Positions 38,551 through 58,020 are shown, numbered from the stretch's first letter. The stretch is 64,000 bases of DNA from Actinomycetes bacterium (GCA_021816935.1 JAKAWR010000002.1:3039-67038), one strand, 5' to 3'. Translations and numbers: made by a program. Notes: a model not told the origin generated them from the sequence alone.

Positions 38551-38559
38551 GGGCCTGCG

Positions 38560-41817: not shown

Positions 41818-42890
41818 CAGTACATCCCCGCGCCAAAACCGATCGCCAGTGCGACATTGTCCATGGTGACCTCCTGGTGAACCACTGTCGGCGGGCTCTT
41901 CGACACCGCCTCGTCGTTGCATACCTTGCATGCCAGGCTTCGTACCTCAACGCTGAAGTAGACACCAGCCACGCTGTCCGCGTCCGTTGTGCATGCAAGC
42001 CCGTCTCCGCCAGCCGCGGTTTGGCCGGCAAGTTGTGTAGAGGTAAAGGTGCAGTTGTCAGTGTTGCCGTCGGCATTGTTCCCGGCCGCATAACCGTCGA
42101 TATATCCACTGTTGTAAGTGCCTGGTGCCTGTAGGTCCTCATTTGCAAAGATCTGGGGACCTGAACAAGGCGCGAACTGGCCGGGCGAGCCGGCCGAGTC
42201 TCCACCTGTACAGGTCGCCGCCGGTGCCGGCCCGTACACTCCGAATATCTGCGCCAGAATCGCGAGGGGACTGGCGGGTGGCGTCACCGTGGCCGAAGTC
42301 AGCGTTCCACTCGACGTACCGCAAGCTGCAGCCCAGGTAGGGTTGGTGGCACGGCTGTCCGTGAACCAGTTGCCCGCCTCGATGAACGAGAACGGCACCA
42401 CGTCGGCTTCCAGCACGTAGTTCGCGTAGGCCGGGTTCGCTATCGTATGAAAGGCATCGGGCTTAGCGTAAACGTAAACCCATCCTGGCAGATGCTGGGC
42501 CCCGTCGGGCAGGCCCGAATAGAAGATCATCGCGTCCGGACACGCCAGGACCACCGCCGGGTCCCCCGTCATGCCCGGATCTCCTGCACCCTCGAGAACG
42601 GAGTTGAGAGCGTTCCCATCCGCTGCCGGCATCGGTGTGGCCGAGGTGATGAAATGCGCGAGCTCGCTCGTGAGCAAGGTGGCCTGGCTCTGCGCGTCCA
42701 GATCCCGCGATGTCGTGTAAAGCGCGTCCGTGAAGTTGGAAAGCGCAAGGAACACCATGGACATCAGGATCATAAAAATCAGGCTCGCCACCATCAGCTC
42801 GATCAGCGTGAAACCTTCGGCGGTCGTCCCGGCCAGCGGATTGCCCCGTGCCCGCTTGATCGCCCCTAATTGCACGACAACGATCCCCAT
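41817..42890 (-). CDS. prepilin-type N-terminal cleavage/methylation domain protein, PilW-like position (module A)
   Basis: ..KRARGNPLAGTTAEG|FTLIELMVASLIFMILMSMVFLAL is a class III signal with Glu+5. Start is ATG 42890 or GTG 42875; the track ORF starts at 42956. Confidence 0.75.
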   Translation of the reverse strand: MGIVVVQLGAIKRARGNPLAGTTAEGFTLIELMVASLIFMILMSMVFLALSNFTDALYTTSRDLDAQSQATLLTSELAHFITSATPMPAADGNALNSVLEGAGDPGMTGDPAVVLACPDAMIFYSGLPDGAQHLPGWVYVYAKPDAFHTIANPAYANYVLEADVVPFSFIEAGNWFTDSRATNPTWAAACGTSSGTLTSATVTPPASPLAILAQIFGVYGPAPAATCTGGDSAGSPGQFAPCSGPQIFANEDLQAPGTYNSGYIDGYAAGNNADGNTDNCTFTSTQLAGQTAAGGDGLACTTDADSVAGVYFSVEVRSLACKVCNDEAVSKSPPTVVHQEVTMDNVALAIGFGAGMY

Positions 42891-45800
42891 GACGAGCTGC
42901 CGGCCGGATTGCTCACGGTAACCGTACTGTTGGGCAGGCATATTCTCGCGTCCCATCCATATCCTGTGTAACTGACACTGGCAGTTATCCAGCTACTGTT
43001 GTGCCAGGTGATGCTCGCACTCTGACCTCCGATGGACGCCGAGACGTCGTTGAAGTTGCTGCCGTATATGTTGAAGGTCAGATTGAGGGTGCACCACCCC
43101 CAATACTTCACCCCGAACCACCCCACACCTCCGGCGGTGCAGTGGCTGTAGTTGGTCGGAGAAACGGAGCTTATCGACGGCGGGCTCAGGTAGGTGTAAG
43201 CCCAGTAGGCGTTGGACCCCTCGTCTGCCCAGTTCGTCGCCTGGACGTGCACCTGGTCGTAATTGCCGTTGGGCGACGGTGGAGCATGGACCGTGAAGTA
43301 CTCCTCGGAGCCGCCGACGCCGCCCTCACCGCATGGGCCTTTGAACGGCCACACCCAGACGGCAGTGCTGTAGCCGCTGATGCTGCTCGCCCAACCCGTC
43401 CCTCCGTCCCAGAACGCCACTTCTTGGATGTAGTCGAAGTTCGAGCCGCAGATTGTGACAGTGTTGCCGCCGCCGGCCGGGCCGTTCGTGGGCGAGATGT
43501 CGCTGATGTGCGGGGTGTTCGCGTAGGTGTACGTTACGGAGTTCGACGTGCCGACCGGGTTCGCGAGATACAGGGGGACCTGCTCAGGACCGTTCAGCGT
43601 GCTTGTGCATCCGAGGAGCAGGGAATGATAGTGCGCTGCAGGAGCGTTCGGGATGGTGAGCGTCTCGCCGAGACCGTTACCAGTCGAGGTTGTCCAGCCG
43701 GCCTGCACGGTAACGGCGTCACAACCAAAGTTGACGGTGGTCACGTGGTCGAAGTAGTTGCCGTACAGCGTGACGGGGTTCCCGCCGCCTACAGGCCCGC
43801 CGCAGTAGCCTGCCGCCGGCGACTTACAGGACGATATGTGGGGCAAGTGATCCCAGGTGAAGGTGGTGGTCGGCGGGTTGCACGACGAAGCCGACAGGGC
43901 ATTGTCGACCACCTGAACGCATGCGGAACCCCCATCCACACCAGCCGCATCGGGTGGCGACGGCGGGGACGGCGGGGACGCAGCTGTGATGTAGTTGTAG
44001 CTAAGTCCGTTGGTGAGATCGTGTCCGAGGTTCGCCAGGTCGGACGGGCAGGGACCGAGGTTCAACGGATCAAGGATGCTCCACGAGAACTTCTGGACCG
44101 AGAACGAGGCCGCCGGGTAGTAGGTTGCGCCGCTGTCAGCCGGGTAATCGAAGCCGACCTCGTAGGTCCCTCCCGGGTTCGATAGCGCGTTGCCTCCGGT
44201 CGGATTGAACCCGCCGCCGCAGATCGTGACCGTAGTACCACCGCCGATCGGCCCCGCCGCCGGGCTGATGGACGAAACGCTCGGGGGGAAGATGTAGAGG
44301 TAGTTGCAGGCGACATTCTGGCCGTTGAGGCTGAGATCCGAACCCCCGTTGATCGACCTGTCGTAGGTCGCCTCGTCCTGGCAGTTGCTCGTCGAGGTGC
44401 CGGTATCGAGGGGATCGGACGAGACGGTCTCGGTCTGGGTATTGCCGTTCAGCGTATAGCTATGCTGTCCCGTTACCGTGATAGATGCCCAGTTCACCGA
44501 GTTGCCCAAGAGGAGGTCCCATCCGGCGCAGAAGCCGAAGTTGGCAAGTGGGTCACACAGATACCAGTCCACCGGAGTCTTCGCGGTGATCTCCGTATCG
44601 GAATCGACGTTGAAGGACGCGTCGATCCCGGCGGGGAGCCCATTCGAGCCCGACGATCCGCACGCCTGCCCGTTGGTTATGTAGACGCACACCTCGACAT
44701 TCGTTGCTCCGCTGAAATTGAACCCGACGATCTCGAGTTGCGTGTTGCCCCACGGTGTACCCGACGGAACCTCGTAGCGACACCTCGTAGGCGAGCCCGG
44801 CGGCGGATTGCCGGGGGCGCACTGCGCGTTCGGGTCGCCCGAATCCTGGTAGGTGCACTGGGCGGCCGTCTGGCCGCCCTGGCAGGAATAGATGCGGTAG
44901 ATGTAGGGATTGACGTCGTAGTTGTAGGTAGCCGCATTGGAGGTGCCTGCCGGATTGCTCAGCGTCACGTGGGCATCACCGCCGGATGGATCCGGGGACG
45001 CCGGGGCAGTCACATCGACGGCTTGCCACGACCCGTTCAGGCCGGAGCAGTAGCTCGAATCGGATGGCGAGGCCTGCTGGACGGCTGCGGTGCTCGCCTC
45101 GCTCCCGTTCGAGTCGCTCGCCGGATCGAACGATGCCTGGTAGATCCCCGTGGTTCCCGGAGGGTTGAGGACACACAGGACGACAGTATTGCCGCCGTCG
45201 ACCGGCCCGAAGGCCGACATCGAAGCGGTAGACGGCTGATCCCACGGGGGGGCCGCGATGGCCTCGATCACCGGAGGCCCGCCCGGATTGCCGCACTGGG
45301 AAGGATCGAGCTCGCAAGGGTCGGTGATCTTTGACGGGAAAACCACCGTCAATATCTGCGAAAGACCGAGGTTGACGGCCTCGCTTACCTGGCTGGCACC
45401 GCTCGGGTCAGCCGTAACGGTATACGAGCCGGGGGCAAGCCCGACGAACGCAGCGCAGCCGCTGGGATTGGTGGCCGCGTCCGGGGGGGTTCCGCCCACA
45501 CTCACCGTGATGTTCGGTACCCCCACCCCGTTCGGGTTCTGCACCAGCACGTCGATCTGGGGCGGCGTCTCCAGGGTAGCCTGGCTGACCGATGCCTTCC
45601 GAGTACCGGAGCCCCACGTGACGGTGCTCACGGCCCGCAGCAGGAGCTGCGGATCGCCGCCCAGCCCGAAGCATTTGCTTGTCAAGGTCGCGCCGGCCAC
45701 GGCTCCGGTTGACGGCGAGATGCTACCGCCGGCGTCCTCCACCACCTCTACGGACTGAGAGAACGAATAGGGAGTGCCGGCCGCAACCTGGGTGCCGGCG

Positions 45801-46249
45801 GTGTTGCCGTTTCCCTGGCAGGCCGGCCAGCCGTCCCCGGCAGATGAGTAGCTTGTCGGGTGAGTCGTACCGGAATCCGAGGACTGCAGCTGCGCACCCG
45901 AGGAGAACGAAGGAAGAAAGACGCCCGTAGGGTGCGCCTTAATGCACGCTACCTGGGAACTTGCGAGGCTCGCACCCTCGACATGGGACTTGTTGACTGC
46001 CGCCCCGGCGAAGATCGACTCGATCAGGTATACCGCAGGCGTCAGTACCATGAGGAGGAGAGCCAGCGCCACGACGACTTCGATAAGGGTCATGCCCCGC
46101 TCTTCGCCGGCCACGGCAGCGAGCGCACGCGAACGATTCGACGTGATCCGGCGGCAGTCATGCGGCACCTGCAAACCCGCCCGATCCTGTTCGGCTGCGG
46201 GGTCACGCCGGCGCCTCCCCGACTCTTGCGCACCCCTCGTAGCATCCAT
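42866..46249 (-). CDS. giant prepilin-type protein, PilV-like position (module A), with CarboxypepD_reg-like and multiple IPT/TIG-like Ig domains
   Basis: ..AGEERG|MTLIEVVVALALLLMVL (Glu+5). GTG at 46114 would give a classic 7-aa leader (M)AGEERG. IPT-like motifs GPIGGGTTVTICGGGF, GPVGGGNPVTLYGNYF and GPAGGGNTVTICGSNF. ..GCAAFVGLAPGSYTVTA.. is CarboxypepD_reg-like. Confidence 0.75.
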   Translation of the reverse strand: MDATRGAQESGRRRRDPAAEQDRAGLQVPHDCRRITSNRSRALAAVAGEERGMTLIEVVVALALLLMVLTPAVYLIESIFAGAAVNKSHVEGASLASSQVACIKAHPTGVFLPSFSSGAQLQSSDSGTTHPTSYSSAGDGWPACQGNGNTAGTQVAAGTPYSFSQSVEVVEDAGGSISPSTGAVAGATLTSKCFGLGGDPQLLLRAVSTVTWGSGTRKASVSQATLETPPQIDVLVQNPNGVGVPNITVSVGGTPPDAATNPSGCAAFVGLAPGSYTVTADPSGASQVSEAVNLGLSQILTVVFPSKITDPCELDPSQCGNPGGPPVIEAIAAPPWDQPSTASMSAFGPVDGGNTVVLCVLNPPGTTGIYQASFDPASDSNGSEASTAAVQQASPSDSSYCSGLNGSWQAVDVTAPASPDPSGGDAHVTLSNPAGTSNAATYNYDVNPYIYRIYSCQGGQTAAQCTYQDSGDPNAQCAPGNPPPGSPTRCRYEVPSGTPWGNTQLEIVGFNFSGATNVEVCVYITNGQACGSSGSNGLPAGIDASFNVDSDTEITAKTPVDWYLCDPLANFGFCAGWDLLLGNSVNWASITVTGQHSYTLNGNTQTETVSSDPLDTGTSTSNCQDEATYDRSINGGSDLSLNGQNVACNYLYIFPPSVSSISPAAGPIGGGTTVTICGGGFNPTGGNALSNPGGTYEVGFDYPADSGATYYPAASFSVQKFSWSILDPLNLGPCPSDLANLGHDLTNGLSYNYITAASPPSPPSPPDAAGVDGGSACVQVVDNALSASSCNPPTTTFTWDHLPHISSCKSPAAGYCGGPVGGGNPVTLYGNYFDHVTTVNFGCDAVTVQAGWTTSTGNGLGETLTIPNAPAAHYHSLLLGCTSTLNGPEQVPLYLANPVGTSNSVTYTYANTPHISDISPTNGPAGGGNTVTICGSNFDYIQEVAFWDGGTGWASSISGYSTAVWVWPFKGPCGEGGVGGSEEYFTVHAPPSPNGNYDQVHVQATNWADEGSNAYWAYTYLSPPSISSVSPTNYSHCTAGGVGWFGVKYWGWCTLNLTFNIYGSNFNDVSASIGGQSASITWHNSSWITASVSYTGYGWDARICLPNSTVTVSNPAGSSSWGSLSCN

Positions 46250-48238: not shown

Positions 48239-48257
48239 ACGATCAGCTCGAGCCGGC

Positions 48258-51200
48258 CTACGGCTGGAGAGAAGCTGGCACTGCAGTCTCTACATACGAC
48301 CCCGACATCTCGGTCCAGGGACTCCCGGCCGACGACAGCAAGTACGGCGGCGGGTTCAACAGCTCGGACGGGTCGTAACTGAAGTCAACCGTCTTGTAGC
48401 CGGACGGGACGAAACACGCGTACTGGCAACCCGAAGGATAGCCCCCTAGCAAGCCGCCGACCCCACCTGGGAAGAACTCGAAGTGGCTGAGCGACAACCC
48501 CGCGTTCTGGAGCGAGTTCGCGTACTGCTCCACCACTGAACCCACCGTCGTGAGGGTGCCAAGGCCGTGGGTACCGCCGCTGAAACTGCCCTGCCCGTAG
48601 GGGCAGAGGTTGACCGTGTTCCCGGTGGGCTGACTGCCGCAGTCCCAGTACGACGTCGTATCGCTGATCGGTGTGGCATAGACGTTGCCCACAGTCGGGT
48701 TCTGCAGGGTGAACGACCCGTTGACGATGCCAAGGTTCGGGTAGTCCATGGTCGAGCTCTCCGACGAGGAGGCGGACACCATCGGACTCGAGTTGGAGGC
48801 AAGAACCAGAGCGTCGACGGTCGGGTTGTACACCGACGAGAACGGGTTCACGGGGCCGTGCGTGAAGGTGGACTCGTACTTCTGCAGGACAGCCTCGTAA
48901 CCGCCGTCGCACGGCGATATGCCGAGCACGTTGCAGATGTCCTGGATGCCGGCACTGAGGCCCATCGCGCCGTAGTCGTAATAGTACGAGAGCCACTGGC
49001 CTCCACAGGAGTCCAGAATCCCGGCAATGAAGTCGTTCCAGGCCTGGCTCCAGTTGCCGCTGAGTATGGCCGTCCAGTTGAAGCTGAAAGAGACGTTCCA
49101 GTTGTTGCACGTGGGGTGCGCAGGTCGAGCGGGCGGAGCTGGTGCGTTGGTGTTCGTGTTCGCCCAGTTGTCCTCGAGACTCGTCACCGTGCACGTCGAC
49201 TCGCTCGCCGATGCACGCGTTACGGGACTTGAGATCGAGCCGTTACCATTCGAAGGCGCGTTGACCCCGCAGAAGTCCTTGTACTCCACACCGTATGCCC
49301 ATGTGGAAATATCGTACATCGCGTCCTCGAAACAGGTCCCCCAGGTGGCGACGTTCCAGGCCGCGCAGGATCCCGACGGGGCTGAAAGCGGCGACACGGG
49401 CGGCAACGGCACGGAATTGGGCTCTGGCGTGCCGCCTGTACCCGGATCGCCCTGTTCCCAGCCCGCACACGGATTGGTTGAGCCCCCCGGGTTCCAGCCC
49501 GCTCCGTTTACGACGCTGCTGGAAGCAGGGCAGTTGTTGTCGTTCTGGCTGGCGTCGACCGGATGCACGACGACGACGTTGCCCTGCGGGTAATACGTCC
49601 CGTTCGCATCGGTTGCCGGGTTCACGAGCTCGATGTTGCCACCGGGTGCAAGCCCCAGGGTGTCCGGGCAGCTCGCCGGCACGGGCGTACCTGGCGGGTT
49701 GGTTGATGCCGCGCAGGCGTAGATGAGGTTCCCCGTCACGACGATGTCATTGGACGCGCCGATAGTGAGCTTGCCTGACAGCGTCCCCTGTACGAGCGCG
49801 TCGCCCCAGAGGCAGTTGTGGTTCTGCAACAGGTTGTCGATCCCGTAGGGAAGGGATGAGACCCCGTATACATTGGGCACGATCGAACTCGACGAGAACG
49901 GGATGCAACTTCCCGTCGCGACATTGGACACGTATATCACCGAGGGCACAGCCGCTGATCCGCCGGTGGTCGGGCAGGAGCCTGCAGGCGTGTTCGGGCT
50001 CCAGGCCTGGAACGACGTGCCGTTGAGCTGGATGAACGTGGGTCCGAAGTAATGGCATCCCCCGGTGGCCGAGGCATTGACCCTGATCGCCTCGAAGTCC
50101 GGAACGGGAGGCGTCAGCGAGGTCACCGTTTTCGTAGCCGGCGGCGAGGTGACGTTCGCACACCCCGAGAGAATCGGTATGTCCCAGGTGTAGTCCTGCC
50201 ACGGTGTCGGGATCGACCCCGACCATGACCAGGCGAAGAGGTCGTTCCCAAGGCTGTGGTTCGGATTGTAGGACTGGGGCGGGCCAGTGGCCGAAGACGA
50301 GTACTGGGGAAGGATCCCCGCCTTGGAGCTCGTGAGCTCGATGGTGGCGCTGTTCAAGTTCGAGGTGGAGCCGCTCGGGCTGCAGGTGTAGAGCGAGTCG
50401 TTCGAGTATACCTTCCCACTCATGTTCGTGGTCATGCCGTAATAGCCGTTGTACATGTCATTGACGTTGCAGAGCAACGGGAAGGGACCATACGCCGGTC
50501 CGAGGAAGGTCTGGACGTCTGTTATCAGCGAATTAACCGCGCTCTCTATGCTGTTGTACATCTCCTGGCCGAGAGGGTAGCCGAAGATGCTGAACGACGC
50601 GAGGCCCTTCAGATACTGGGCCATCTCGTTGTCCACCATTGTAGTGAGTATCGGGCTGTCCAGCAGCGATAGGATCGTGTTCGACTGGTAGGCGTGGTAG
50701 TTGCACATGTAGAAGCCGAGCTTGACCGCTCCGACCGGCCCGTTGCCGAGGAACTCGCTCATCAGCGACTTCATCGAGGCAGGCAGGCTGCCTGACACGA
50801 GGGACACCACCCATTCTATGAAGGTGAACGCGGCGGCATTGGTGTACGCAAAGGGGCTGGAGGTCTCGTAATTCGTGAAATAAGAGTACGAGAGGGCGGG
50901 GTTATCGAAGTTCGACTCGACGGTGCGATAGCGGTAGTGTCCGGGCGAGCCGGCCCGTCCCGTGACCTTTGCCGTGATATACCCGCTGGAGGCATTCGAG
51001 GTATCGACCCTGAAAACATACGACTCATTCAGGCCACCTCCGGCAGAAGCCGACCCTGGTACGGGTGCCCAGCCGCCGTACGCGTTGTTCGGCCCCTTGT
51101 ACGTAGACGGGCAACTCGACGACGAACCGAAATAGAACCCGTCCCACTGACCGCTCGACGGCGCTGTACACTGGGCGTCGTTGTAGGACACGTTCGATAT

Positions 51201-51500
51201 ATTCTCCGTCAGCAGCGAAACGTAGCTATCCATGCCCGTCTGCGCTGCTGCAAGCGCAGCCTTCGAGTTCTGCACGGAAAGAGCGATCGGAATCTGGCCG
51301 GACACCCCGTTGAAGATCACCATGGGCACCAGCGCCAGCACGACGATCAGCATGATAGCCATGATCATCGCCTGCCCTGCCGACTCCCTTGCGCTCGTTG
51401 CCAGCCGGCGAACCGGCCGCCGGCCGAGGCGCGGTCTCGGTCTCGGTACCCCCCCGCGACTTACTACCTGCCGTACTCCCGTAGTCGAAGCCGATCTCAT
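48258..51500 (-). CDS. giant PilX/GspK-like minor-pilin-type protein (module B), 1080 aa
   Basis: ..ARESAGQAMIMAIMLIVVLALVPMVIF..NSKAALAAAQTGMDSYVSLL. It shares long collinear blocks with 38560..41817: ALSY..FTNYET.SP, CNYHAY, GPFP..CN.ND.Y, GPTFIQL, HNC.WGDA.VQGTL.G.LTI.A.N.I...GN.IYACA, CPD.LGLAPGGN and SHFEFF. Confidence 0.72.
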   Translation of the reverse strand: MRSASTTGVRQVVSRGGVPRPRPRLGRRPVRRLATSARESAGQAMIMAIMLIVVLALVPMVIFNGVSGQIPIALSVQNSKAALAAAQTGMDSYVSLLTENISNVSYNDAQCTAPSSGQWDGFYFGSSSSCPSTYKGPNNAYGGWAPVPGSASAGGGLNESYVFRVDTSNASSGYITAKVTGRAGSPGHYRYRTVESNFDNPALSYSYFTNYETSSPFAYTNAAAFTFIEWVVSLVSGSLPASMKSLMSEFLGNGPVGAVKLGFYMCNYHAYQSNTILSLLDSPILTTMVDNEMAQYLKGLASFSIFGYPLGQEMYNSIESAVNSLITDVQTFLGPAYGPFPLLCNVNDMYNGYYGMTTNMSGKVYSNDSLYTCSPSGSTSNLNSATIELTSSKAGILPQYSSSATGPPQSYNPNHSLGNDLFAWSWSGSIPTPWQDYTWDIPILSGCANVTSPPATKTVTSLTPPVPDFEAIRVNASATGGCHYFGPTFIQLNGTSFQAWSPNTPAGSCPTTGGSAAVPSVIYVSNVATGSCIPFSSSSIVPNVYGVSSLPYGIDNLLQNHNCLWGDALVQGTLSGKLTIGASNDIVVTGNLIYACAASTNPPGTPVPASCPDTLGLAPGGNIELVNPATDANGTYYPQGNVVVVHPVDASQNDNNCPASSSVVNGAGWNPGGSTNPCAGWEQGDPGTGGTPEPNSVPLPPVSPLSAPSGSCAAWNVATWGTCFEDAMYDISTWAYGVEYKDFCGVNAPSNGNGSISSPVTRASASESTCTVTSLEDNWANTNTNAPAPPARPAHPTCNNWNVSFSFNWTAILSGNWSQAWNDFIAGILDSCGGQWLSYYYDYGAMGLSAGIQDICNVLGISPCDGGYEAVLQKYESTFTHGPVNPFSSVYNPTVDALVLASNSSPMVSASSSESSTMDYPNLGIVNGSFTLQNPTVGNVYATPISDTTSYWDCGSQPTGNTVNLCPYGQGSFSGGTHGLGTLTTVGSVVEQYANSLQNAGLSLSHFEFFPGGVGGLLGGYPSGCQYACFVPSGYKTVDFSYDPSELLNPPPYLLSSAGSPWTEMSGSYVETAVPASLQP

Positions 51501-51576
51501 CCGGCACTCACCTCCAACTCAATCGTTTCCCGGGAAATCGCATTCTGCACCAACGCTTCATCCATGGTGCCGTCCA

Positions 51577-52596
51577 TCAGAAGCCTCCTGCTCCGAAGCC
51601 TGACGCCGATGCGATGTTCTGCAATACGACCTGTTCGCTGACCGTCACGGGTGCGCCGGCGGCCGAAACCGCCCCCTGCACGTTCCGGAAGCGCTGCATC
51701 CTCACGTCGAAGCCGATCGCATCGATGTTCTGCGGGAAGTCTCCACTCGTCCCGCTGGTACCCGTCAGATTGCCGCCGGTGGCACCGGACCAGTAGGTGA
51801 AAAGCGGCAACGACGACAGCTCGGAACAACTCGGACAGCTGAACGTGTACGGATTGGGGGCGAACACCACATCGGGGACATCAGCCACGATCTTCGCGCT
51901 CGATCCCCAAGACGAAGGAAGGAAACCCGCACCGCCCGAGCAACTGGCCGGAGCCGCTGACGGCGGGCTGCTGCTCGGTCCGTTCGGGCTTACGTACGCG
52001 TGCAGGGTGTACTCCGTCCGCTCCAGAAGCGGCGTCGTCACCTGGTTCCATGTGCCCGGATTGGCCCAGCTACTCGTCACCACGTTTCCGCTGGAGTCCG
52101 TGAGGTACAGGTAGACCCAGGTCCCACCCAACGCTTCCGGCGGTTCCGAGTACAGGATCGCTTCGTAAGGACATGCCAGCCAAACCGCAGTACCCGGAGC
52201 TGTGCCCCAATTGATCACCGGTGGCGCCGGGACGACCGCGGCGCGCAGCAAAGGCGGGATCGACGAGAGGGCCTGCTCTCCGTCCCCGAGGCCGGTGAGC
52301 GTCCTCATGGACACGGCCTGGTTCTGGAGGTACGCCCCCGCAGTCACGAGAACCATGGCAATGACGATGAGGAAGATGAAGCTTGCCACCATCAGTTCTA
52401 TCAGGGTGAAACCGCCGTCGACGCCCGGGGAGCGCCCCCCGTCAGCACATACCTCCACCGGTTGCCCGGCACGCTGCAATAGGCGCCGGAAACGCGCATC
52501 GTGTGCTACTCGCTGCGGCAGCATGCCTCGCCTGCAAGGCAGGCTACTCGCTCGCGCGTCACCGGAAAGCACGCGTACGGATCCATCTGGACTCAC
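51577..52596 (-). CDS. prepilin-type N-terminal cleavage/methylation domain protein, PilW-like position (module B)
   Basis: ..SPGVDGG|FTLIELMVASFIFLIVIAMVLVTAG (Glu+5). A possible GTG start at 52458 would give a 16-aa leader. Confidence 0.72.
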   Translation of the reverse strand: MSPDGSVRVLSGDARASSLPCRRGMLPQRVAHDARFRRLLQRAGQPVEVCADGGRSPGVDGGFTLIELMVASFIFLIVIAMVLVTAGAYLQNQAVSMRTLTGLGDGEQALSSIPPLLRAAVVPAPPVINWGTAPGTAVWLACPYEAILYSEPPEALGGTWVYLYLTDSSGNVVTSSWANPGTWNQVTTPLLERTEYTLHAYVSPNGPSSSPPSAAPASCSGGAGFLPSSWGSSAKIVADVPDVVFAPNPYTFSCPSCSELSSLPLFTYWSGATGGNLTGTSGTSGDFPQNIDAIGFDVRMQRFRNVQGAVSAAGAPVTVSEQVVLQNIASASGFGAGGF

Positions 52597-52632
52597 ACTG
52601 ACATTATCGGGGCTTGCCCTCCGTGTGTCTAG

Positions 52633-52689
52633 TACGTGAAACTACCCGTATGCAGGCAGGCGACCTACGCATTCGGGTGATTTCACGTA
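52633..52689. promoter_or_regulatory. 9-bp inverted repeat in the AT-richer divergent promoter region of module B
   Basis: tacgtgaaa (52633-52641) and tttcacgta (52681-52689), between the divergent genes 51577..52596 (-) and 52854..56756 (+). Confidence 0.35.
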
Positions 52690-52853
52690 TAGACTTACTT
52701 ACGTCACTCCCAGCATAATCGTTATGTGTGGGTTAATTCGATTTGCGGTCACGACCACAGACGCCGTGTCGCGTTGTCGCTTCCGGCAACCGCGGGTGGC
52801 CCCGGTGAACGTGAACGTAGGCTGCACCCGCTCGGCACGGAGCGCCCGTCGGC

Positions 52854-55800
52854 ATGGATGACCATCGGGAAGGCCGCAACCGGGAAGCTGCCGGCATGAC
52901 CCGGTCGCGCTCTTCGCTCCCTGTCCGGAGGCTGCGCCTACGCCAGAGCGAGGGGATGACCCTCGTAGAGGTGCTTATCGCCATCTTCCTGATCGTCATG
53001 GTACTTGCGCCGGCTGCCGCCCTCCTGACAAATGAGATCGGTGTGACCCAGTCCACGAAGCACCGCACGGTGGCTGCCGGCTTGGCCACCTCTACCCTCA
53101 ACTGTACCGAGGCAAGTCATCTGTCGCAGTTGGAAGGCCAGCTGGGCATCGACAGCAGCGGCCTCACATATACCCCCCCACCGGCCTCCCAACAGGCCCC
53201 CTGCACCCTGAATCTCGGCTCCCAGTACGAGGTAGCGGGATCTCCCGGCACCACCCGCTGGGGATCATCGACAACGAACACCGCCGGCACCCCGTGCCAG
53301 AGCGGCGCTGCCGGTCCGGGCCTGCCCAACCTTTACGACAGCACTGCGTGCGTTCAGGAGACCGACTCCGTCTCGAACTCGGGCATCAACCTCGAGCGAA
53401 CGCAGACGATGCAATTCGTCACTGCGGCATCCGGAGGGGGCGAGACCATCCCGGTCAAGAACACCTGCTACGGCGGAACATTGAACAACAGTCCTCCCAT
53501 CATGCTGGAGACCACCACCACGGTGTCCTGGCCGCAGCACGGCAAGGCCGCGGGAACGCCCGGGGCAGCCGCCACGGCCCAGTCGCGCCTCTTCACCCCC
53601 TCTCAGATCGACGTCGAAGTGTACAGCACGTCTGCAACGCCTCCGGGCCCATACAACGGAGCGTCGGTGACCATAAGCGGGCCGACGACCATGAGCACCC
53701 TCGTTACGGGCACGACCGGGTGCGTGTCGTTCGTCGGGATCGCCCAGGGCAACTACACCGTTACGGCAAAGAGCGGGTCGACGACGCTCGGATCGCAGGG
53801 CGTCGACGTGACCCCGGGGAGTATCCACGGCATAGTTATCATGACTGCCACCAACTGCACCACACTCGGCAACTGCCCCGCCCCGCCGGGGGGACCGCCG
53901 GTCGTCGACGGTATTTACCCCACCGAAGGCCCCATCGCCGGGGGGAACACCGTTTACATCTGCGGCAATAACTTCAGTGACGGAAGCGCCGGGACCACCA
54001 CGACGGTATCGAGCGTCTTCTTCGGCGCCGACAGCGACCCTAACCGCCAGGCAGCCCAGTACACGCTCCTCGGCAGCGTTCCCACCGAGGTTACGGACAA
54101 CATGTCGACCTGCGACCCGGGCGCTTCGACACCGCTTCAGGTGCTGCAGGTCACAGCGCCGGCGTGGGCGGACGCCAGCCAGCCGGGTGGTGGCAACGTC
54201 AACGTCGTGGTGGCAAACTCGGTCGGCGAGGCGTCGAACCAGCCGTTGTACACATACACAGCCCTGCCCATCATCTACACGATCTCGGAGAACCAGTGCA
54301 CACCCACTCCGTCGGGTTGCGTGACAAACAGCATCCCGACGGGCTGGAACTGCTCTTCGAGCACGGATTGCTACAACCCCTGCTTCCCGGCGGCGTCTGC
54401 GTGCGGACCGGTAGGAACCGCATCGGGAGGCCAGTTCCTGGAACTCTACGGCTATAACTTCTCAGGGGTCAACAACGTCGCGTTCTGCATCTTCCTCCCG
54501 TCGCCGCCATCGTCGGGAGGGCAGCCCTTCGCCGGGATCGGACCAAACATCTATTCGGGTACGCTGTCGGGCCTCAACCCCAGCAATGCGACCACCGAGC
54601 AGCAGCAGCTCTTCCAGAACGGCAACAACTCGAACTGCGGGCTCGTCGATGCCACTTTCCAGGTCCAGAGCGACTCCGAGATAACCCTCCAGACGCCGTC
54701 GGACTGGTTCTACTGCCCGATCGGGAACCCCGGCCTCTACGTCAGCTACTTCAACTTCTGCACCGGCCTCGACATCCCCGAGAACTCCGCCCACAACTAC
54801 GCTGCCCTTTTCGTGACCAGCCAGTACACGAGCCAGTCCGGCCAGTCCGCAGGCAGCAGCTGCAGTACCGCCGGTTCCTGCACATTGAACGTCTCTCCCG
54901 CAGGCGGTACCCAGGGCTGTCCCGAAACCAATACCTACCCGGCACCCCCGGCGCCCTACCTGCCCGCCATCGGGAACGGCGTCACGTGCTGGTACCATTT
55001 CGATTCCCAGGGCGAGCCGCCCATCAATTACACCGACAACGCCTGCGACGCCGCCGGCAACCCGCTCGGCTACTGCCTCCTCGATACGGACGAGGCGGCT
55101 GACGGGACCGGGATACTCAACACCGACACCGTCGACCCGTACACCTGGACCGACAACGCTTGCGACATGGGCCAAGAGAACGGATGGACGGTAGGGGGAA
55201 CGTGTGCGAGCGAGCCGGACGGAGACGGGGTCGAACCGCCGCCCACCTATTCGGACAACCAGTGCGACGCCGCCGGCAACCCGCTCGGGTGGTGCTACAC
55301 CGACACCGATGCTCTGGCCGATGCTACGAGCACCGGCAACGGTGACGCCACCGACCAAGTCAACTGGACCGACAACGCCTGTGACGCCGCGGGCAACCCG
55401 GGGTGGGCGGGCTGCAACGGGAACGAACCGCCGAATGGTTCCGACGGGGACGGCGAGTACCAGATCTGGAGCAACGAACCTGGTATCAACTGGAGCGACG
55501 ACCTCGCTTGCGACGCCAACGGCAACCCCAGTTGGTGCAACACCGACAGCGACGGGTTGGCCGATTCCACGGGCACCGGCAACGGTGACGCCACCGACCA
55601 AGTCAACTGGACCGACAACGCCTGTGACGCCGCGGGCAACCCGGGGTGGGCGGGCTGCAACGGGAACGAACCGCCGGGAGGATGCGACGAGTGCTATTGG
55701 GGTGAGTACGAGTACCAGATCTGGACAGGCGAGCCGGGCACCAGCTGGGACGACAATACCTGCGACGCAGCCAACAACGGAGCGCTTTCCGGGTGCCAGG

Positions 55801-56756
55801 ACGCATGGGCGGATAACAAGGATGGCAACGACGGCGAGTCGTGCAGTTGGGGCAGTGGGGACTGCTGGGACTTTACCACCGGCGAAGACAATGACGCCGG
55901 AAGCGAAGGGATCAACTGGTACGAGGACAACACCTGTGACGCCGCGGGCAACCCCGGGAACGGTATCTGCAACGGGAACGAGGGCCCCTGGTCCCAGGAT
56001 GGAGACGAGTACCAGGTCTGGACCGGCGAGCCCGGCGTCAACTGGGACGACAACGCCTGCGACGCCGCTGGTAACCCCGGCGGGTTTGGCGGCCCGTGCT
56101 ACCCCTGGGCCCCGGGCAGCGAAGCGTCAGCGGACGGGAGCGGGATCCTCAACACCGACGTCGTCGATCCGGGAGCCTGGAACGACAACGCCTGCGACAT
56201 GGCCGGATCGAGCTCGGGAGCTTGCTCGTTCAATACCGAAGGTCCCTGGTCCCACGACGGCGACGAGACGCTGATCTGGACGGGCGAGCCCGGCGTCAAC
56301 TGGGACGACAACGCCTGCGACGCCGCTGGTAACCCCGGCGGGCTCCTCGGCCCGTGCTACCCCGACATCCCGGGCACCGAAGCGTCAGCGGACGTGACCG
56401 GGATCCTCAACACCGACGTCACCGAAACCATCAACTGGACCGACCCTGCGTGCGACTATGCCGGCAACCCTGGAGGGCACGGCTGTGCCGCCGAGAACGA
56501 CGGTGACGAGACCTACGAGACCAATGAGTCCATCAACTGGCACGATGACAACGCCTGCGACGCGGTCGGCAATCCGCTCGGGTGGTGCCTCCTCTACACG
56601 GACGAGGCGGCTGACGGTACCGGAACCGCCAACTCGGATGCCACCGATCCGTACACCTGGACCGACAATGCCTGCGACATGGCGAGCAACACGACTTCTC
56701 CCTGTGCGACAGAGCCTGACGGCGACGAGACCTACGCCAGCAATCCCGTCCCGTAG
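52854..56756 (+). CDS. giant prepilin-type protein, PilV-like (module B), with CarboxypepD_reg-like and IPT/TIG-like domains and a C-terminal array of Cys/Asp/Asn-rich repeats
   Basis: ..RLRLRQSEG|MTLVEVLIAIFLIVMVL (Glu+5). The likely start is ATG 52896, giving a 20-aa leader. ..GCVSFVGIAQGNYTVTA.., GPIAGGNTVYICGNNF, then about 14 copies of W-x-D-(N/D)-x-C-D-A-A-G-N-P-x(2-6)-C. Confidence 0.75.
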   Translation: MDDHREGRNREAAGMTRSRSSLPVRRLRLRQSEGMTLVEVLIAIFLIVMVLAPAAALLTNEIGVTQSTKHRTVAAGLATSTLNCTEASHLSQLEGQLGIDSSGLTYTPPPASQQAPCTLNLGSQYEVAGSPGTTRWGSSTTNTAGTPCQSGAAGPGLPNLYDSTACVQETDSVSNSGINLERTQTMQFVTAASGGGETIPVKNTCYGGTLNNSPPIMLETTTTVSWPQHGKAAGTPGAAATAQSRLFTPSQIDVEVYSTSATPPGPYNGASVTISGPTTMSTLVTGTTGCVSFVGIAQGNYTVTAKSGSTTLGSQGVDVTPGSIHGIVIMTATNCTTLGNCPAPPGGPPVVDGIYPTEGPIAGGNTVYICGNNFSDGSAGTTTTVSSVFFGADSDPNRQAAQYTLLGSVPTEVTDNMSTCDPGASTPLQVLQVTAPAWADASQPGGGNVNVVVANSVGEASNQPLYTYTALPIIYTISENQCTPTPSGCVTNSIPTGWNCSSSTDCYNPCFPAASACGPVGTASGGQFLELYGYNFSGVNNVAFCIFLPSPPSSGGQPFAGIGPNIYSGTLSGLNPSNATTEQQQLFQNGNNSNCGLVDATFQVQSDSEITLQTPSDWFYCPIGNPGLYVSYFNFCTGLDIPENSAHNYAALFVTSQYTSQSGQSAGSSCSTAGSCTLNVSPAGGTQGCPETNTYPAPPAPYLPAIGNGVTCWYHFDSQGEPPINYTDNACDAAGNPLGYCLLDTDEAADGTGILNTDTVDPYTWTDNACDMGQENGWTVGGTCASEPDGDGVEPPPTYSDNQCDAAGNPLGWCYTDTDALADATSTGNGDATDQVNWTDNACDAAGNPGWAGCNGNEPPNGSDGDGEYQIWSNEPGINWSDDLACDANGNPSWCNTDSDGLADSTGTGNGDATDQVNWTDNACDAAGNPGWAGCNGNEPPGGCDECYWGEYEYQIWTGEPGTSWDDNTCDAANNGALSGCQDAWADNKDGNDGESCSWGSGDCWDFTTGEDNDAGSEGINWYEDNTCDAAGNPGNGICNGNEGPWSQDGDEYQVWTGEPGVNWDDNACDAAGNPGGFGGPCYPWAPGSEASADGSGILNTDVVDPGAWNDNACDMAGSSSGACSFNTEGPWSHDGDETLIWTGEPGVNWDDNACDAAGNPGGLLGPCYPDIPGTEASADVTGILNTDVTETINWTDPACDYAGNPGGHGCAAENDGDETYETNESINWHDDNACDAVGNPLGWCLLYTDEAADGTGTANSDATDPYTWTDNACDMASNTTSPCATEPDGDETYASNPVP
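55331..55676. repeat. 103-bp perfect direct repeat, two copies 243 bp apart, inside the Cys/Asp repeat array
   Basis: caccggcaacggtgacgccaccgaccaagtcaactggaccgacaacgcctgtgacgccgcgggcaacccggggtgggcgggctgcaacgggaacgaaccgccg occurs at 55331-55433 and 55574-55676. A second 60-bp perfect pair lies at 56025-56084 and 56283-56342. Confidence 0.9.
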
Positions 56757-56943: not shown

Positions 56944-58020
56944 ATGGGAGCTCCGACAAATCACCAACCCGAAAGGACTGAGATGAGCGAAATGGTATCG
57001 ACTACGCGAAGGGACTCGACGGGTTCTCGCCCGGCGGCACCTTCATCGATCACGCCGCTACCTCCCGCTGGAAGGGTGCTCGCGCCGGTTCTCCTGGCTG
57101 TCACAGTATCCCTGCTGGCGGCGGCATGCACTTCCACGGGAGCAATCAGCAACGCCGCAAAGTACCTCTCGCATATCCGTCACGCCGGGGCGGCCACGAT
57201 AGCGGGATCCACCGCAGGAGTGGCACTCCAGGTAAGCATAGGGGGAAGTGGCACCCTGCCTATCGACCAGGGGGAGATCGACCTTGCACATGGTCTTACA
57301 TCGATAGCCGCTGTCGCCAAACCTCCCGGCTCGTCCACCCCGGCGACCATCAGGGGGGTGGATACGCCTACCGTGATCTACCAGGAGCTTCTATCGAACT
57401 ACGCCCCAAAGGGGCTCAAGCAGCCGCTTCCGGCGCTGCTCGGCGGTAAGACCTGGGAGCAGCTGACGTCCACCCTCGGCTCTTCGGGCATCCAGGGCAA
57501 CGCCCAGTACTTTAACAGCGAGATCTACAACCCGTTCTGGCTGCTGTCGACCCTCGGTGGCGCATCTGCTCCCGTAAAAGACCTCGGGTCGTCAACCGTC
57601 GGGACCGTCAGCGCGACCCATTACAGCTTCCGGGTCAACCTGCAGGCTGCGGCTGCGAGCTCCCAGGCGGTCAAAGCCGGTCTCGGGCCCATCATGTCCG
57701 ACGAGGCCGCCTTTCTCGGGGTAGCGACTTTCCCCGCGCAGGTATGGCTCGACAACCAGGGGCGTGTCGTGCAGCTGTTCGTCACGCTGACCTTTCCGTC
57801 GAGCAAGTACGAGACGGCCGTCAAGACGCGGCCAGCGGCAACGGTAGAGCTCATCCTGTCGGGCTACGGCTCGCCGATCTCGCCGATTTCCGTACCGCCC
57901 GCATCGTCGGTGGCCACTGCTCAGCAGGTCAACCAGGTTGAGGCCGCAGCACAGAGCGCGACACCCCCCTCGACCACCAGCTCCAGCTCGCCGTCGCCCG
58001 GCACCGGAAGCGGCGGCTGA
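56944..58020 (+). CDS. lipoprotein of unknown function
   Basis: Lipobox ..SLLAAAC|TSTG and a globular domain ending ..FPAQVWLDNQGRVVQLFVTLTFPS.. plus a Ser/Pro tail. It is loosely LppX/LprG-like in layout (my impression only). Confidence 0.6.
   Translation: MGAPTNHQPERTEMSEMVSTTRRDSTGSRPAAPSSITPLPPAGRVLAPVLLAVTVSLLAAACTSTGAISNAAKYLSHIRHAGAATIAGSTAGVALQVSIGGSGTLPIDQGEIDLAHGLTSIAAVAKPPGSSTPATIRGVDTPTVIYQELLSNYAPKGLKQPLPALLGGKTWEQLTSTLGSSGIQGNAQYFNSEIYNPFWLLSTLGGASAPVKDLGSSTVGTVSATHYSFRVNLQAAAASSQAVKAGLGPIMSDEAAFLGVATFPAQVWLDNQGRVVQLFVTLTFPSSKYETAVKTRPAATVELILSGYGSPISPISVPPASSVATAQQVNQVEAAAQSATPPSTTSSSSPSPGTGSGG

What the first reader, a model, noticed from the sequence alone, without database searches (positions are those of the whole stretch)
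55024..56753. Unrecognised Cys/Asp/Asn-rich mini-repeat array: W-x-D-N-x-C-D-A-A-G-N-P-x(2-6)-C, about 14 copies, at the C-terminus of the 1300-aa pilin-like protein
The last ~580 aa consist of short disulfide-loop units. Examples are YTDNACDAAGNPLGYC, WTDNACDAAGNPGWAGC, WDDNACDAAGNPGGFGGPC and WHDDNACDAVGNPLGWC. They are interleaved with acidic stretches (DTDEAADGTGILNTD, NTDSDGLADSTGTGNGDATD, DGDGEYQIW, DGDETLIW). The acidic stretches recall calcium-binding thrombospondin-type-3 or RTX-like loops, but the repeat does not match any family I can name. Perfect DNA duplications of 103 bp (55331/55574) and 60 bp (56025/56283) show the array is actively expanding. Module A's PilV-like protein lacks the array, so it is the main difference between the two payloads.
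Basis: seen in the sequence. Interest (0 to 1): 0.75.

Follow-up and report, generated by a model that had tools for sequence, protein, structure and literature searches.

The report
New acidic cysteine-loop pilin module
The last 577 residues of a giant type IV pilin-like protein from an uncultured actinomycete are a real, translated array of 14 very acidic two-cysteine mini-repeats that match no described family, occur in only four proteins among about 15 billion searched, and have been grafted at three different positions onto pilus-type proteins, so they are probably a disulfide- and cation-stabilised display or adhesion module whose function is untested.

Summary
ORF 52854..56756(+) encodes a 1300-aa protein with a prepilin-type N-terminus (G|MTLVE), CarboxypepD_reg and TIG domains. 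Its aa 724-1300 hold 14 units W-x-D-N-A-C-D-A-A-G-N-P-x(2-8)-C, arranged as seven alternating A/B super-repeats around one unique central Cys element. Both exact DNA duplications exist (104 bp and 60 bp).

The frame is coding: GC3 is 0.84, variation between copies is mostly synonymous, and the motif is conserved in genomes of 52-66% GC.

Pfam, NCBIfam and PDB sequences give no match. Profile-profile comparison with genuine thrombospondin type-3 repeats is negative (probability 0.25% or less; control 98.6%). An exhaustive profile scan of 1.84 billion representatives finds only four true members, all in minor-pilin-like loci of uncultured Actinomycetes.

The array is a portable module. It is C-terminal in two PilV-like pilins, and inserted at two different internal sites in homologs of the neighbouring 1080-aa protein. 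It is colinear at 53% identity across different hosts.

Composition (net charge -110, one Lys, no Arg, 8.7% ILVMF, even Cys count) suggests a disulfide/cation-stabilised non-globular module. AlphaFold2 gave no usable model. I read it as a new effector module of modular pilins; its function is inferred only.

The parts
52854..56756 (+). Gene for the 1300-aa modular pilin-like protein (the end coordinate includes the stop codon)
   Evidence: ORF list. An identical 1300-aa protein, P0002, is in the public collection from NCBI and ENA. GC3 is 0.82-0.84 throughout.
52941..53015 (+). Prepilin-type N-terminal motif and hydrophobic helix (aa 30-54; ...QSEG|MTLVEVLIAIFLIVMVL, Glu at +5)
   Evidence: Pfam N_methyl scores 20.1 bits (cut-off 21.2) and TIGR02523 PilV scores 24.6 bits (cut-off 52.2) over aa 33-80. 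The motif can be read directly in the sequence.
53649..53822 (+). CarboxypepD_reg-like beta-sandwich (aa 266-323)
   Evidence: Pfam PF13620, E = 2.6e-4, 21.7 bits, below the cut-off of 32.3. The same domain is seen in paralog w1127 and in P0003.
53898..54257 (+). IPT/TIG Ig-like domain (aa 349-468)
   Evidence: Pfam PF01833, E = 4.4e-9, 36.6 bits, above the cut-off of 20.9.
55023..56753 (+). The repeat array, aa 724-1300: 14 units, seven A+B super-repeats
   Evidence: Net charge -110, 32 Cys, 29 Trp, 1 Lys, 0 Arg.
55023..55247 (+). Super-repeat 1 (A unit aa 726, B unit aa 765)
   Evidence: Segmentation; alignment A1.
55248..55490 (+). Super-repeat 2 (units aa 799, 838)
55491..55745 (+). Super-repeat 3 (units aa 880, 919; carries an extra C-D-E-C pair)
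55746..56042 (+). Super-repeat 4. It contains the unique central element ...ADNKDGNDGESCSWGSGDCWDF... followed by B unit aa 1022
   Evidence: Equivalent central elements occur in P0001, P0004 and the L002 ORF.
56043..56300 (+). Super-repeat 5 ('GPCYP'-type A unit aa 1064, B unit aa 1109)
   Evidence: Duplicate of super-repeat 6.
56301..56537 (+). Super-repeat 6 (units aa 1150, 1195)
56538..56753 (+). Super-repeat 7 (units aa 1229, 1267), ending at the C-terminus
55330..55433 (+). Copy 1 of the 104-bp exact direct repeat (copy 2 at 55573-55676); lies within a 157-nt pair of 91% identity
   Evidence: (family D6).
55573..55676 (+). Copy 2 of the 104-bp exact direct repeat
56025..56084 (+). Copy 1 of the 60-bp exact direct repeat (copy 2 at 56283-56342); lies within a 189-nt pair of 87% identity spaced 258 nt apart
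   Evidence: (family D4).
56283..56342 (+). Copy 2 of the 60-bp exact direct repeat
51577..52596 (-). Divergently transcribed 339-aa pilin-like gene (prepilin N-terminus)
   Evidence: Pfam N_methyl 26.5 bits, above the cut-off of 21.2. TIGR02532 22.5 bits, above the cut-off of 16.3.
48258..51500 (-). 1080-aa protein with an N-terminal hydrophobic segment and no family match. Its homologs P0004 and P0005 carry the array internally
56944..58020 (+). Downstream 358-aa lipoprotein-like gene, syntenic with the gene after the array in L001
   Evidence: NF053532 SCO4651-family lipoprotein, E = 1.8e-11, 44.2 bits, below the cut-off of 65. A homolog follows the array in L001.
42866..46249 (-). Module A paralog: a 1127-aa PilV-like pilin with TIG domains and no array
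   Evidence: 28% identity to aa 1-659 of the 1300-aa protein, and motif count 0.

Best explanation
The array is a previously undescribed extracellular protein module that is restricted to one lineage.

Anatomy. Each unit of about 35-45 aa has an invariant core, W-x-D-N-A-C-D-A-A-G-N-P, closed by a second Cys about 10 residues later, followed by an acidic Asp/Asn/Gly-rich linker. Two unit types alternate: A, with linker x-T-D-T-D-x-x-A-D-x-T-G-x-x-N-x-D-x-x-D-P, and B, with linker x-E-P-D-G-D-E-x-x-(I-W)-x-G-E-P-G. One unique central Cys element sits in the middle.

Inferred structure. With almost no hydrophobic or basic residues and a net charge near -110, the array cannot form a conventional hydrophobic core. 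I infer that it is held together by local, nearest-neighbour disulfides and by divalent cations (most likely Ca2+) bound by the Asp/Asn side chains. In physical terms it would work like thrombospondin type-3 'wires' or LDL-A/cbEGF-type modules without being homologous to them.

Inferred role. It is carried by pilin-like proteins of a three-gene minor-pilin-type locus in uncultured Actinomycetes. It sits either at the C-terminus of a prepilin-type, TIG-containing giant pilin (this window) or inside the partner protein of about 1100 aa. I therefore infer that it is the 'effector' part of a modular pilin, displayed at the tip of a type IV filament. There it would act as an adhesive or ligand-binding surface (cation-bridged binding to a glycan, mineral or cell surface) or as an extended spacer.

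Evolution. It changes by unit duplication and gene conversion between near-identical DNA repeats, and by transfer of the whole module between tip proteins.

Shown here: the repeat anatomy, translation and purifying selection, rarity, absence of any known-family match, the pilin context, three graft sites, and recent recombination. Inferred only: disulfides, cation binding, tip display, and an adhesion or spacer function.
For: Anatomy: 14 units and 7 super-repeats. Across 54 units the core is C 100%, D+1 100%, D-3 98%, N 94%, P 91% and the second Cys 98%.

Translation and selection: GC3 is 0.84 in frame against 0.82 in the N-terminal part. Among 26 core copies, differences fall 1431 at codon position 3 against 358 and 243 at positions 1 and 2, with 1218 synonymous and 355 non-synonymous codon differences. 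The motif is retained in loci of 52%, 56% and 66% GC.

No known family: Pfam and NCBIfam, a PDB profile search at E<=10, and hhalign against TSP3 at probability 0.25% or less.

Rarity: 4 true members in 1.84e9 representatives, each a singleton cluster. One fragment was found by the word-indexed search. One MAG was found among 185,579 species genomes. None was found in JGI metagenomes.

Pilin context: the G|MTLVE motif and N_methyl/PilV N-terminal hits, and neighbouring prepilin-type genes.

Portability: P0004's internal array is colinear with the window array at 53% identity over 545 aa, while the hosts share only 23%. The three graft sites are fixed by landmarks.

Composition: net charge -110, 1 K, 0 R, 8.7% ILVMF, 32 Cys. 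The extra Cys come as local pairs (C-D-E-C and C-x7-C).

Recent recombination: exact repeats of 104 and 60 bp and the unit orthology matrix.

Precedent: effector modules grafted on tip-located pilins, and shared between pilins and non-pilin tip partners (PMC8179133).
Against: No structure could be obtained: AlphaFold2 gave pLDDT 41 and 29, so the fold, the disulfide pattern and any cation sites are unverified. The window array has no canonical DxDxDG calcium motif. No type IV pilus ATPase, platform protein or prepilin peptidase lies in the 64-kb window, so assembly into a filament is assumed. The pilin HMM scores of the 1300-aa protein fall just below the curated cut-offs. The 1080-aa host family has no recognisable domain, so calling it a tip partner is inference from gene order. 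Nothing bears on the ligand. All members come from metagenome assemblies, and repeat regions are prone to assembly error.
Confidence: 0.55

Rival explanations
1. The units are highly diverged true homologs of thrombospondin type-3 (TSP_3) calcium-binding repeats, which also occur in bacterial OmpA-family proteins, and they bind Ca2+ in the same way.
For: There is a superficial similarity: D-N-(A)-C-D-x-x-G-N-P against TSP3 D-N-C-P-x-x-x-N-P, followed by Asp-rich stretches (TSP3 sequences read). Both are acidic, Cys-containing and poor in hydrophobic residues.
Against: The Pfam TSP_3 model is not hit at E<=10 by the whole protein, the array alone or unit pairs. The array profile does not hit COMP, TSP-1 or TSP-2 chains in PDB at E<=10. 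hhalign against a 14-repeat TSP3 profile and against the COMP/TSP-2 wire gives probabilities of 0.0-0.25%, while the TSP3 control gives 98.6%. The window array has no D-x-[DN]-x-[DN]-G motif. The Cys spacing also differs, about 10 residues within a unit against about 20 in the TSP3 C-type repeats aligned.
Confidence: 0.08
2. The array is an intrinsically disordered, highly charged spacer or 'bristle' pinned only by small disulfide loops. It would keep the pilus tip or cell surface hydrated, or extend the N-terminal TIG domains away from the filament, with no ligand binding of its own.
For: The composition is extreme: net charge -110 and 8.7% ILVMF. AlphaFold2 predicts no secondary structure and gives very low confidence. 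Unit number is variable among relatives: 8, 10, 13 and 14.
Against: Twelve core positions are near-invariant across 54 units and across genomes of very different GC content. The A/B order and the central element are conserved colinearly at 53% identity. Both go well beyond what a compositional spacer needs. In the window protein the array is the distal, C-terminal part, so there is nothing beyond it to space out. Insertion into internal sites of a second host suggests a self-contained unit whose two ends can be accommodated there.
Confidence: 0.2
3. The region is not a real protein feature: a mis-assembled or untranslated repetitive DNA stretch, or a pseudogene tail in which a high-GC sequence happens to stay open.
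For: High-GC DNA gives long spurious ORFs on other frames here, for example 55204..56274(+) and 54462..55601(-). Repeat arrays break or collapse assemblies, as seen in the related MAG.
Against: GC3 is 0.84 only in the annotated frame. Variation between copies is predominantly synonymous. The same amino-acid motif is encoded with different codons in three other loci of 52-56% GC. The identical 1300-aa protein is recorded from two independent sources, NCBI and ENA.
Confidence: 0.02

Closest known systems
Modular type IV pilins, e.g. Streptococcus sanguinis PilB (vWA module) and PilC (lectin module); Raynaud et al. 2021, PMC8179133
   Same: An N-terminal prepilin motif and helix are followed by bulky extra modules that would be compatible only with tip display. 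The gene sits among other minor-pilin-like genes. That paper reports modules shared between pilins and a non-pilin tip partner (PilC/PilY1), which parallels the array being found either on the pilin or inside the 1080-aa partner family.
   Different: The grafted module here matches no known domain signature, is a 577-aa repeat array and not a globular domain, and follows TIG/CarboxypepD_reg domains. At 1300 aa the protein is far larger than PilB, and larger than the 860-residue extreme case cited in the paper. Piliation and adhesion are untested here.
Thrombospondin type-3 repeats (Pfam PF02412; COMP 3FBY, TSP-2 1YO8, TSP-1 1UX6)
   Same: A plausible analogy in physical principle: an acidic, Asp/Asn-rich, Cys-containing repeat with few hydrophobic residues. 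From general knowledge of the TSP-1 and COMP structures, TSP3 repeats fold around Ca2+ ions and disulfides instead of a hydrophobic core. Both share a short D-N-x-C...N-P string.
   Different: There is no detectable sequence or profile relationship. The DxDxDGxxDxxD motif is absent. The Cys spacing and unit length differ. The conserved Trp/Tyr at the start of each unit has no TSP3 counterpart.
Tip-located minor pilins with large inserted domains (T2SS GspK, Thermus ComZ), as reviewed in PMC8179133
   Same: In P0004 and P0005 the array is inserted inside a large protein that has an N-terminal hydrophobic segment lacking Glu5 (…G|QAMIMAIML…). The non-canonical tip pilins GspK and ComZ likewise carry inserted domains.
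   Different: The 1080-aa family gives no pilin HMM hit at all, so calling it a GspK/PilX-like pilin is inference from gene order and the N-terminal segment only.
Ig-like repeat proteins bearing a 'SDAAGN' string (P0006, P0007)
   Same: They share the short string D-A-A-G-N and so appear as weak hits to profile positions 18-60.
   Different: P0006 has no Cys, the repeats are about 80 aa and beta-rich in appearance, and neither has W-x-D-N-x-C-D. I treat both as spurious matches.

Membership tests
Thrombospondin type-3 repeat (Pfam TSP_3, PF02412) | Match to the family HMM | tested here: not met
   No TSP_3 hit at E<=10 for the whole protein, the 580-aa array or two unit pairs. HMMER's filters limit this to roughly E<0.25.
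Thrombospondin type-3 repeat (Pfam TSP_3, PF02412) | Profile-profile similarity to authentic repeats (COMP, TSP-2) | tested here: not met
   hhalign probability 0.25% (units vs TSP3 units) and 0.0-0.1% (units or A1 vs the wire). The positive control gave 98.6%. The array profile against PDB at E<=10 does not hit 3FBY, 1YO8 or 1UX6.
Thrombospondin type-3 repeat (Pfam TSP_3, PF02412) | D-x-D-x-D-G-x-x-D-x-x-D calcium-binding consensus | tested here: not met
   Zero D-x-[DN]-x-[DN]-G motifs in the window array; only 6 'DGD' strings.
Thrombospondin type-3 repeat (Pfam TSP_3, PF02412) | Ca2+ binding and a disulfide-stabilised fold without a hydrophobic core | not testable with these tools
   The composition is compatible, but the AlphaFold2 models are unusable at pLDDT 41 and 29.
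Type IV pilin / modular pilin (class III signal peptide, IPR012902 / PF07963) | N-terminal leader ending in Gly, then a hydrophobic helix with Glu at +5 | tested here: met
   The sequence reads ...RQSEG|MTLVEVLIAIFLIVMVLAPAAALL. N_methyl scores 20.1 bits against a cut-off of 21.2, and TIGR02532 scores 11.9 against 16.3, so the HMM scores are marginally sub-threshold.
Type IV pilin / modular pilin (class III signal peptide, IPR012902 / PF07963) | Additional non-pilin module(s) fused after the pilin module | tested here: met
   CarboxypepD_reg-like, TIG (above cut-off) and the 577-aa array.
Type IV pilin / modular pilin (class III signal peptide, IPR012902 / PF07963) | Genomic association with other pilin genes | tested here: met
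   The adjacent 339-aa gene passes the N_methyl and TIGR02532 cut-offs. The paralogous Module A has two more prepilin-type genes.
Type IV pilin / modular pilin (class III signal peptide, IPR012902 / PF07963) | Assembly machinery (ATPase, platform, prepilin peptidase) and incorporation into a filament | not tested
   None of these genes is in the 64-kb window. The rest of the genome was not available, and filament incorporation needs an experiment.
PilV (TIGR02523 equivalog) | Whole-protein score at or above the curated cut-off (52.2 bits) | tested here: not met
   24.6 bits, matching only aa 33-80, the N-terminal helix.
   No hits at E<=10 on the array or on unit pairs. No PDB sequence hit.

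The most novel reading that the evidence does not exclude
The array is a new kind of cation- and disulfide-organised 'wire' fold, convergent with thrombospondin type-3 repeats, that serves as a portable adhesin cassette. Uncultured Actinomycetes would move it between different tip subunits of a type IV filament and resize it by recombination to tune attachment to a glycan, mineral or partner-cell surface.
Probability: 0.3. Interest if true: 0.65.

Novelty: new variant of a known kind. Interest (0 to 1): 0.5.

Why it matters
If the inference holds, this adds a new effector module to the catalogue of modular pilins. It gives a clear natural example of one module being grafted at three different positions in two protein families of a single pilus-tip-type locus, which bears on how type IV filaments gain new functions.

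The repeat is also a candidate new disulfide/cation-stabilised fold without a hydrophobic core. Current structure prediction fails on it completely, so it is a useful test case. Because unit boundaries, unit types and a natural series of 8 to 14 or more copies are defined, it is tractable for expression and biophysics.

Its practical reach is limited by extreme rarity (four proteins, all from uncultured Actinomycetes) and by the lack of any functional data.

Tried and rejected
- Tandem Repeats Finder found nothing in the array because the units are too divergent and irregularly spaced. The repeat finder and a protein regex were needed instead.
- The word-indexed protein search with the array returned only one fragment (P0001) and missed the protein itself. 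With the N-terminal 723 aa it returned nothing at all, not even self, probably because the candidate list saturates. The distribution of array-less host homologs is therefore unknown.
- Exact look-ups of the 1300-aa protein and of the downstream gene found no contig. Provenance came only through the histidinol dehydrogenase gene.
- The JGI metagenome scan gave 514 pattern matches, none confirmed.
- Two AlphaFold2 runs were unusable: a 75-aa super-repeat with 12 paralogous rows (pLDDT 41), and 237 aa with 6 rows (pLDDT 29). Fold search was deliberately not run on them.
- A global MAFFT alignment of hosts with and without the array was scrambled by the repeats. Insertion sites were fixed with BLAST coordinates and sequence landmarks instead.
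- An apparent frameshift upstream of P0001 in L001 was considered and rejected. The correct frame is open to the contig edge, so P0001 is a truncated gene call.
- P0006 and P0007 were rejected as family members because they are Cys-free or motif-free Ig-like repeats.
- Literature searches for the motif string and for the accession numbers found nothing.
- A resemblance of 'W-x-D-N' and 'E-P' strings to the C-type lectin WND/EPN motifs was considered from memory only. It was not tested and is not claimed.

Full report
**1. What is there**

The window contains an ORF at 52854..56756 (+) of 1300 aa. Its N-terminus reads ...RQSEG|MTLVEVLIAIFLIVMVL: a leader ending in Gly, then a hydrophobic helix with Glu at +5. 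Pfam N_methyl scores it at 20.1 bits (cut-off 21.2). The PilV equivalog TIGR02523 scores 24.6 bits (cut-off 52.2), over the N-terminal helix only. A CarboxypepD_reg-like stretch (aa 266-323, sub-threshold) and a TIG domain (aa 349-468, 36.6 bits, above cut-off) follow.

At DNA level the 43-nt core forms a 12-copy family spaced 105-258 nt apart. Tandem Repeats Finder misses it. The exact repeats are real: 104 bp at 55330/55573 and 60 bp at 56025/56283.

**2. Anatomy**

The units are not all equivalent. They alternate between two types.
- Type A: core, then a linker x-T-D-T-D-x-x-A-D-x-T-G-x-x-N-x-D-x-x-D-P.
- Type B: core, then a linker x-E-P-D-G-D-E-x-x-(I-W)-x-G-E-P-G.

This gives seven super-repeats of 72-99 aa. 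Super-repeat 4 contains a unique element (...ADNKDGNDGESCSWGSGDCWDF...). This element has counterparts in the middle of the array in P0001 (EWCEGSWWC), P0004 (ESCYLGFIGDC) and the MAG locus L002 (EGCGLFGPYDC).

Over 54 units from five proteins the consensus is W-[TSD]-D-N-A-C-D-A-A-G-N-P-x(n)-C. Conservation is C 100%, the following D 100%, the D three residues before the first Cys 98%, N 94%, P 91% and the second Cys 98%. The offset from the first Cys to the second is mostly 10-11 positions.

The window array has 79 D, 32 E, 1 K and 0 R, for a net charge of -110. It has 29 W and 32 C, and only 8.7% ILVMF against 20.6% in the N-terminal part. The four Cys beyond two per unit occur as two local pairs, C-D-E-C and C-x7-C. 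That fits nearest-neighbour disulfides; this is inference.

**3. Is it translated?**

GC3 is 0.84 in the annotated frame and 0.82 in the N-terminal part; the other two frames place the GC-rich position elsewhere. Among 26 copies of the 10-codon core taken from the window and three other loci, differences fall 1431 at third positions against 358 and 243 at first and second positions. Synonymous codon differences number 1218 and non-synonymous 355. One caveat applies: the copies were selected by an amino-acid pattern, which inflates this contrast.

The motif is kept in DNA of 66% GC (the window array; the window as a whole is 64%), 56% (L001) and 52% (L002, L003). The identical 1300-aa protein is on record from NCBI and ENA. 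The alternative ORFs on other frames are artefacts of high GC content.

**4. Does it belong to a known family?**

Pfam and NCBIfam give nothing for the array, even at E<=10, whether scanned as the whole protein, the array alone or unit pairs. HMMER's filters make that effectively E of about 0.25 or more. A profile of 12 super-repeats (A1) against all PDB sequences at E<=10 gives one meaningless hit, glycine oxidase at E = 1.1, and no thrombospondin or COMP.

I built a 14-repeat profile and a wire alignment from them and ran hhalign. Probabilities were 0.25%, 0.1% and 0.0%, against 98.6% for the TSP3 self-control. The window array also has no D-x-[DN]-x-[DN]-G motif. The D-N-x-C...N-P resemblance is therefore not a detectable relationship.

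**5. How rare is it, and where else is it?**

An exhaustive hmmsearch of A1 against 1.84 billion cluster representatives, standing for about 15 billion proteins, returned six hits.
- **P0006 and P0007:** spurious. They are Ig-like repeats sharing only 'SDAAGN'. P0006 has no Cys, and neither contains the W-x-D-N-x-C-D motif.
- **P0002:** the window protein itself.
- **P0003:** 1187 aa, a PilV-like/TIG pilin 44% identical in its N-terminal part, with 8 units at the C-terminus.
- **P0004:** 1715 aa.
- **P0005:** 1648 aa.

Each is a singleton cluster. Other searches agree on rarity.
- The word-indexed search found only P0001, a contig-edge fragment of a P0003-like gene.
- A back-translated DNA pattern found one MAG among 185,579 species genomes: Actinomycetes bacterium TL1-2.bin40.
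- JGI metagenomes gave no confirmed relative.
- The motif string appears in no paper in the library.

**6. The array is a portable module**

P0004 and P0005 are not PilV-like. Their non-repeat parts are homologous to the window's neighbouring 1080-aa protein (48258..51500 -) and its Module A paralog (38560..41931 -).

Two landmarks are shared by all four proteins: V-[IV]-Y-V, and T-I-x-A-x-N-D about 55-90 residues later. The P0005 array (aa 655-987) lies between them, at 632 and 1064. The P0004 array (aa 761-1509) lies after both, at 547 and 639. With the C-terminal position in the window protein and P0003, that makes three graft sites in two protein families of the same kind of locus.

P0004's array aligns colinearly with the window array at 53% identity over 545 aa. 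The hosts share only about 23%. The module as a whole has therefore moved, keeping its internal order.

Synteny supports a common locus type: in L001 the array gene is followed by a homolog of the window's downstream gene 56944..58020.

**7. Locus context**

The window holds two paralogous modules.
- **Module B:** 1300-aa pilin (+), transcribed divergently from a 339-aa prepilin-type gene, the 1080-aa protein and a 279-aa ORF.
- **Module A (37411-46249, -):** 1127-aa PilV-like/TIG pilin, a 379-aa prepilin-type gene, a 1123-aa protein and a 379-aa ORF.

Module A's pilin has further TIG domains in place of the array and no motif copy. The two large pilins share only 28% identity, so the array is the main architectural difference but not the only one.

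No pilus ATPase, platform or peptidase gene lies in the window; the other genes are metabolic or transport genes. Promoter-like sites face both ways in the 52597-52853 intergenic region, which is weak evidence. The organism recurs in GCA_027414435.1, SRR13205817 and ERZ27237319.

**8. Is it 'actively expanding'?**

Window units 1064 and 1150 are 73% identical to each other, and each is 73% identical to the single P0004 unit 1035. Together with the 189-nt pair of 87% identity that contains the 60-bp exact repeat, spaced 258 nt apart, this indicates a duplication of one A+B block in the window lineage, or its loss in P0004.

Units 838 and 919 both best-match P0004 unit 868, and units 799 and 880 both best-match P0004 unit 910. 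With the 104-bp exact repeat this indicates a second recent duplication or gene conversion. Unit counts differ among relatives: 14, 8, 13 and 10.

Recent recombination is shown. Directional expansion is not.

**9. Mechanism (inferred)**

A 577-aa segment with almost no hydrophobic or basic residues, an even number of Cys and near-invariant Asp/Asn/Gly/Pro positions cannot fold around a hydrophobic core. The best-supported reading is a chain of small disulfide-closed loops organised by divalent cations. That is analogous in principle to TSP3, cbEGF or LDL-A modules, although membership of the one family tested was not met.

The carrier proteins have the features of modular pilins and of a tip partner. 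In the published cases such grafted modules are effector, usually adhesive, modules displayed at the filament tip, and modules are shared between pilins and PilC/PilY1 (PMC8179133). I therefore commit to a cation- and disulfide-stabilised display or adhesion module of a type IV filament tip, at confidence 0.55.

The rivals are a purely disordered acidic spacer (0.2), a diverged true TSP3 homolog (0.08) and an artefact (0.02). AlphaFold2 gave no usable model in two attempts, with pLDDT 41 and 29, so no fold comparison was attempted.

**10. Verdict**

I class it as a new variant of a known kind: a modular pilin carrying a previously undescribed repeat module. Interest is moderate at 0.5. It is a well-defined, strongly conserved, extremely rare and demonstrably portable module with a probably unusual fold, but it has no functional evidence, a very narrow distribution and no link to a standing open question.

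Noticed in passing
window 37411-46249 (-) and 47399-56756: There are two paralogous minor-pilin-like modules side by side. Each has a giant PilV-like/TIG pilin, a pilin-like gene of 340-380 aa, a protein of about 1100 aa with no family match (35% identity between the two copies over about 1140 aligned positions) and a small Ser/Thr/Pro-rich ORF. No assembly genes are nearby.
   Followed up: partly
window 48258-51500 (-) and 38560-41931 (-): The proteins of about 1100 aa are Cys-rich, have an N-terminal hydrophobic segment without Glu5 (G|QAMIMAIML...) and match nothing in Pfam or NCBIfam. They are themselves an uncharacterised family, possibly a GspK/PilX-like or PilY1-like tip component, and they host the array in P0004 and P0005.
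   Followed up: partly
L003 (end of JAJZWU010000037.1) and L002 (start of JAJZWU010000003.1): In MAG TL1-2.bin40 the assembly breaks inside the array. The two contig ends are the two halves of one gene. P0005, from another NCBI assembly, equals the L003 tail plus the L002 head minus 147 aa, a stretch that holds 3 units and the central Cys element. P0005 is therefore either a collapsed assembly or a shorter natural allele.
   Followed up: partly
window 56944-58020 (+); L001 1602-2630: The gene downstream of the array-bearing pilin resembles SCO4651-family lipoproteins (44 bits, below the cut-off of 65) and is conserved in synteny in the lower-GC relative. A second lipoprotein-like ORF lies at 58263-59267 (-) and was not analysed.
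   Followed up: partly
P0004 aa 1230-1535: Beyond the part colinear with the window array, P0004 has about 300 more residues of degenerate, even more Asp-rich material (e.g. DQDNDGDAAGDTDSDPASD, DGDTDGDG) that includes canonical DxDxDG-like strings absent from the window array.
   Followed up: no
window 54462-55601 (-) and 55204-56274 (+): Long ORFs of 379 and 356 aa overlap the array on other frames. They are Pro/Arg/Thr/Gly-rich shadows of the high-GC repeat and should not be annotated as genes.
   Followed up: yes
tool behaviour: The word-indexed homolog search failed to return the query's own database entry for both halves of this protein, whereas the exhaustive HMMER scan found it. Negative results from the word-indexed tool on compositionally biased proteins should not be trusted.
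   Followed up: yes
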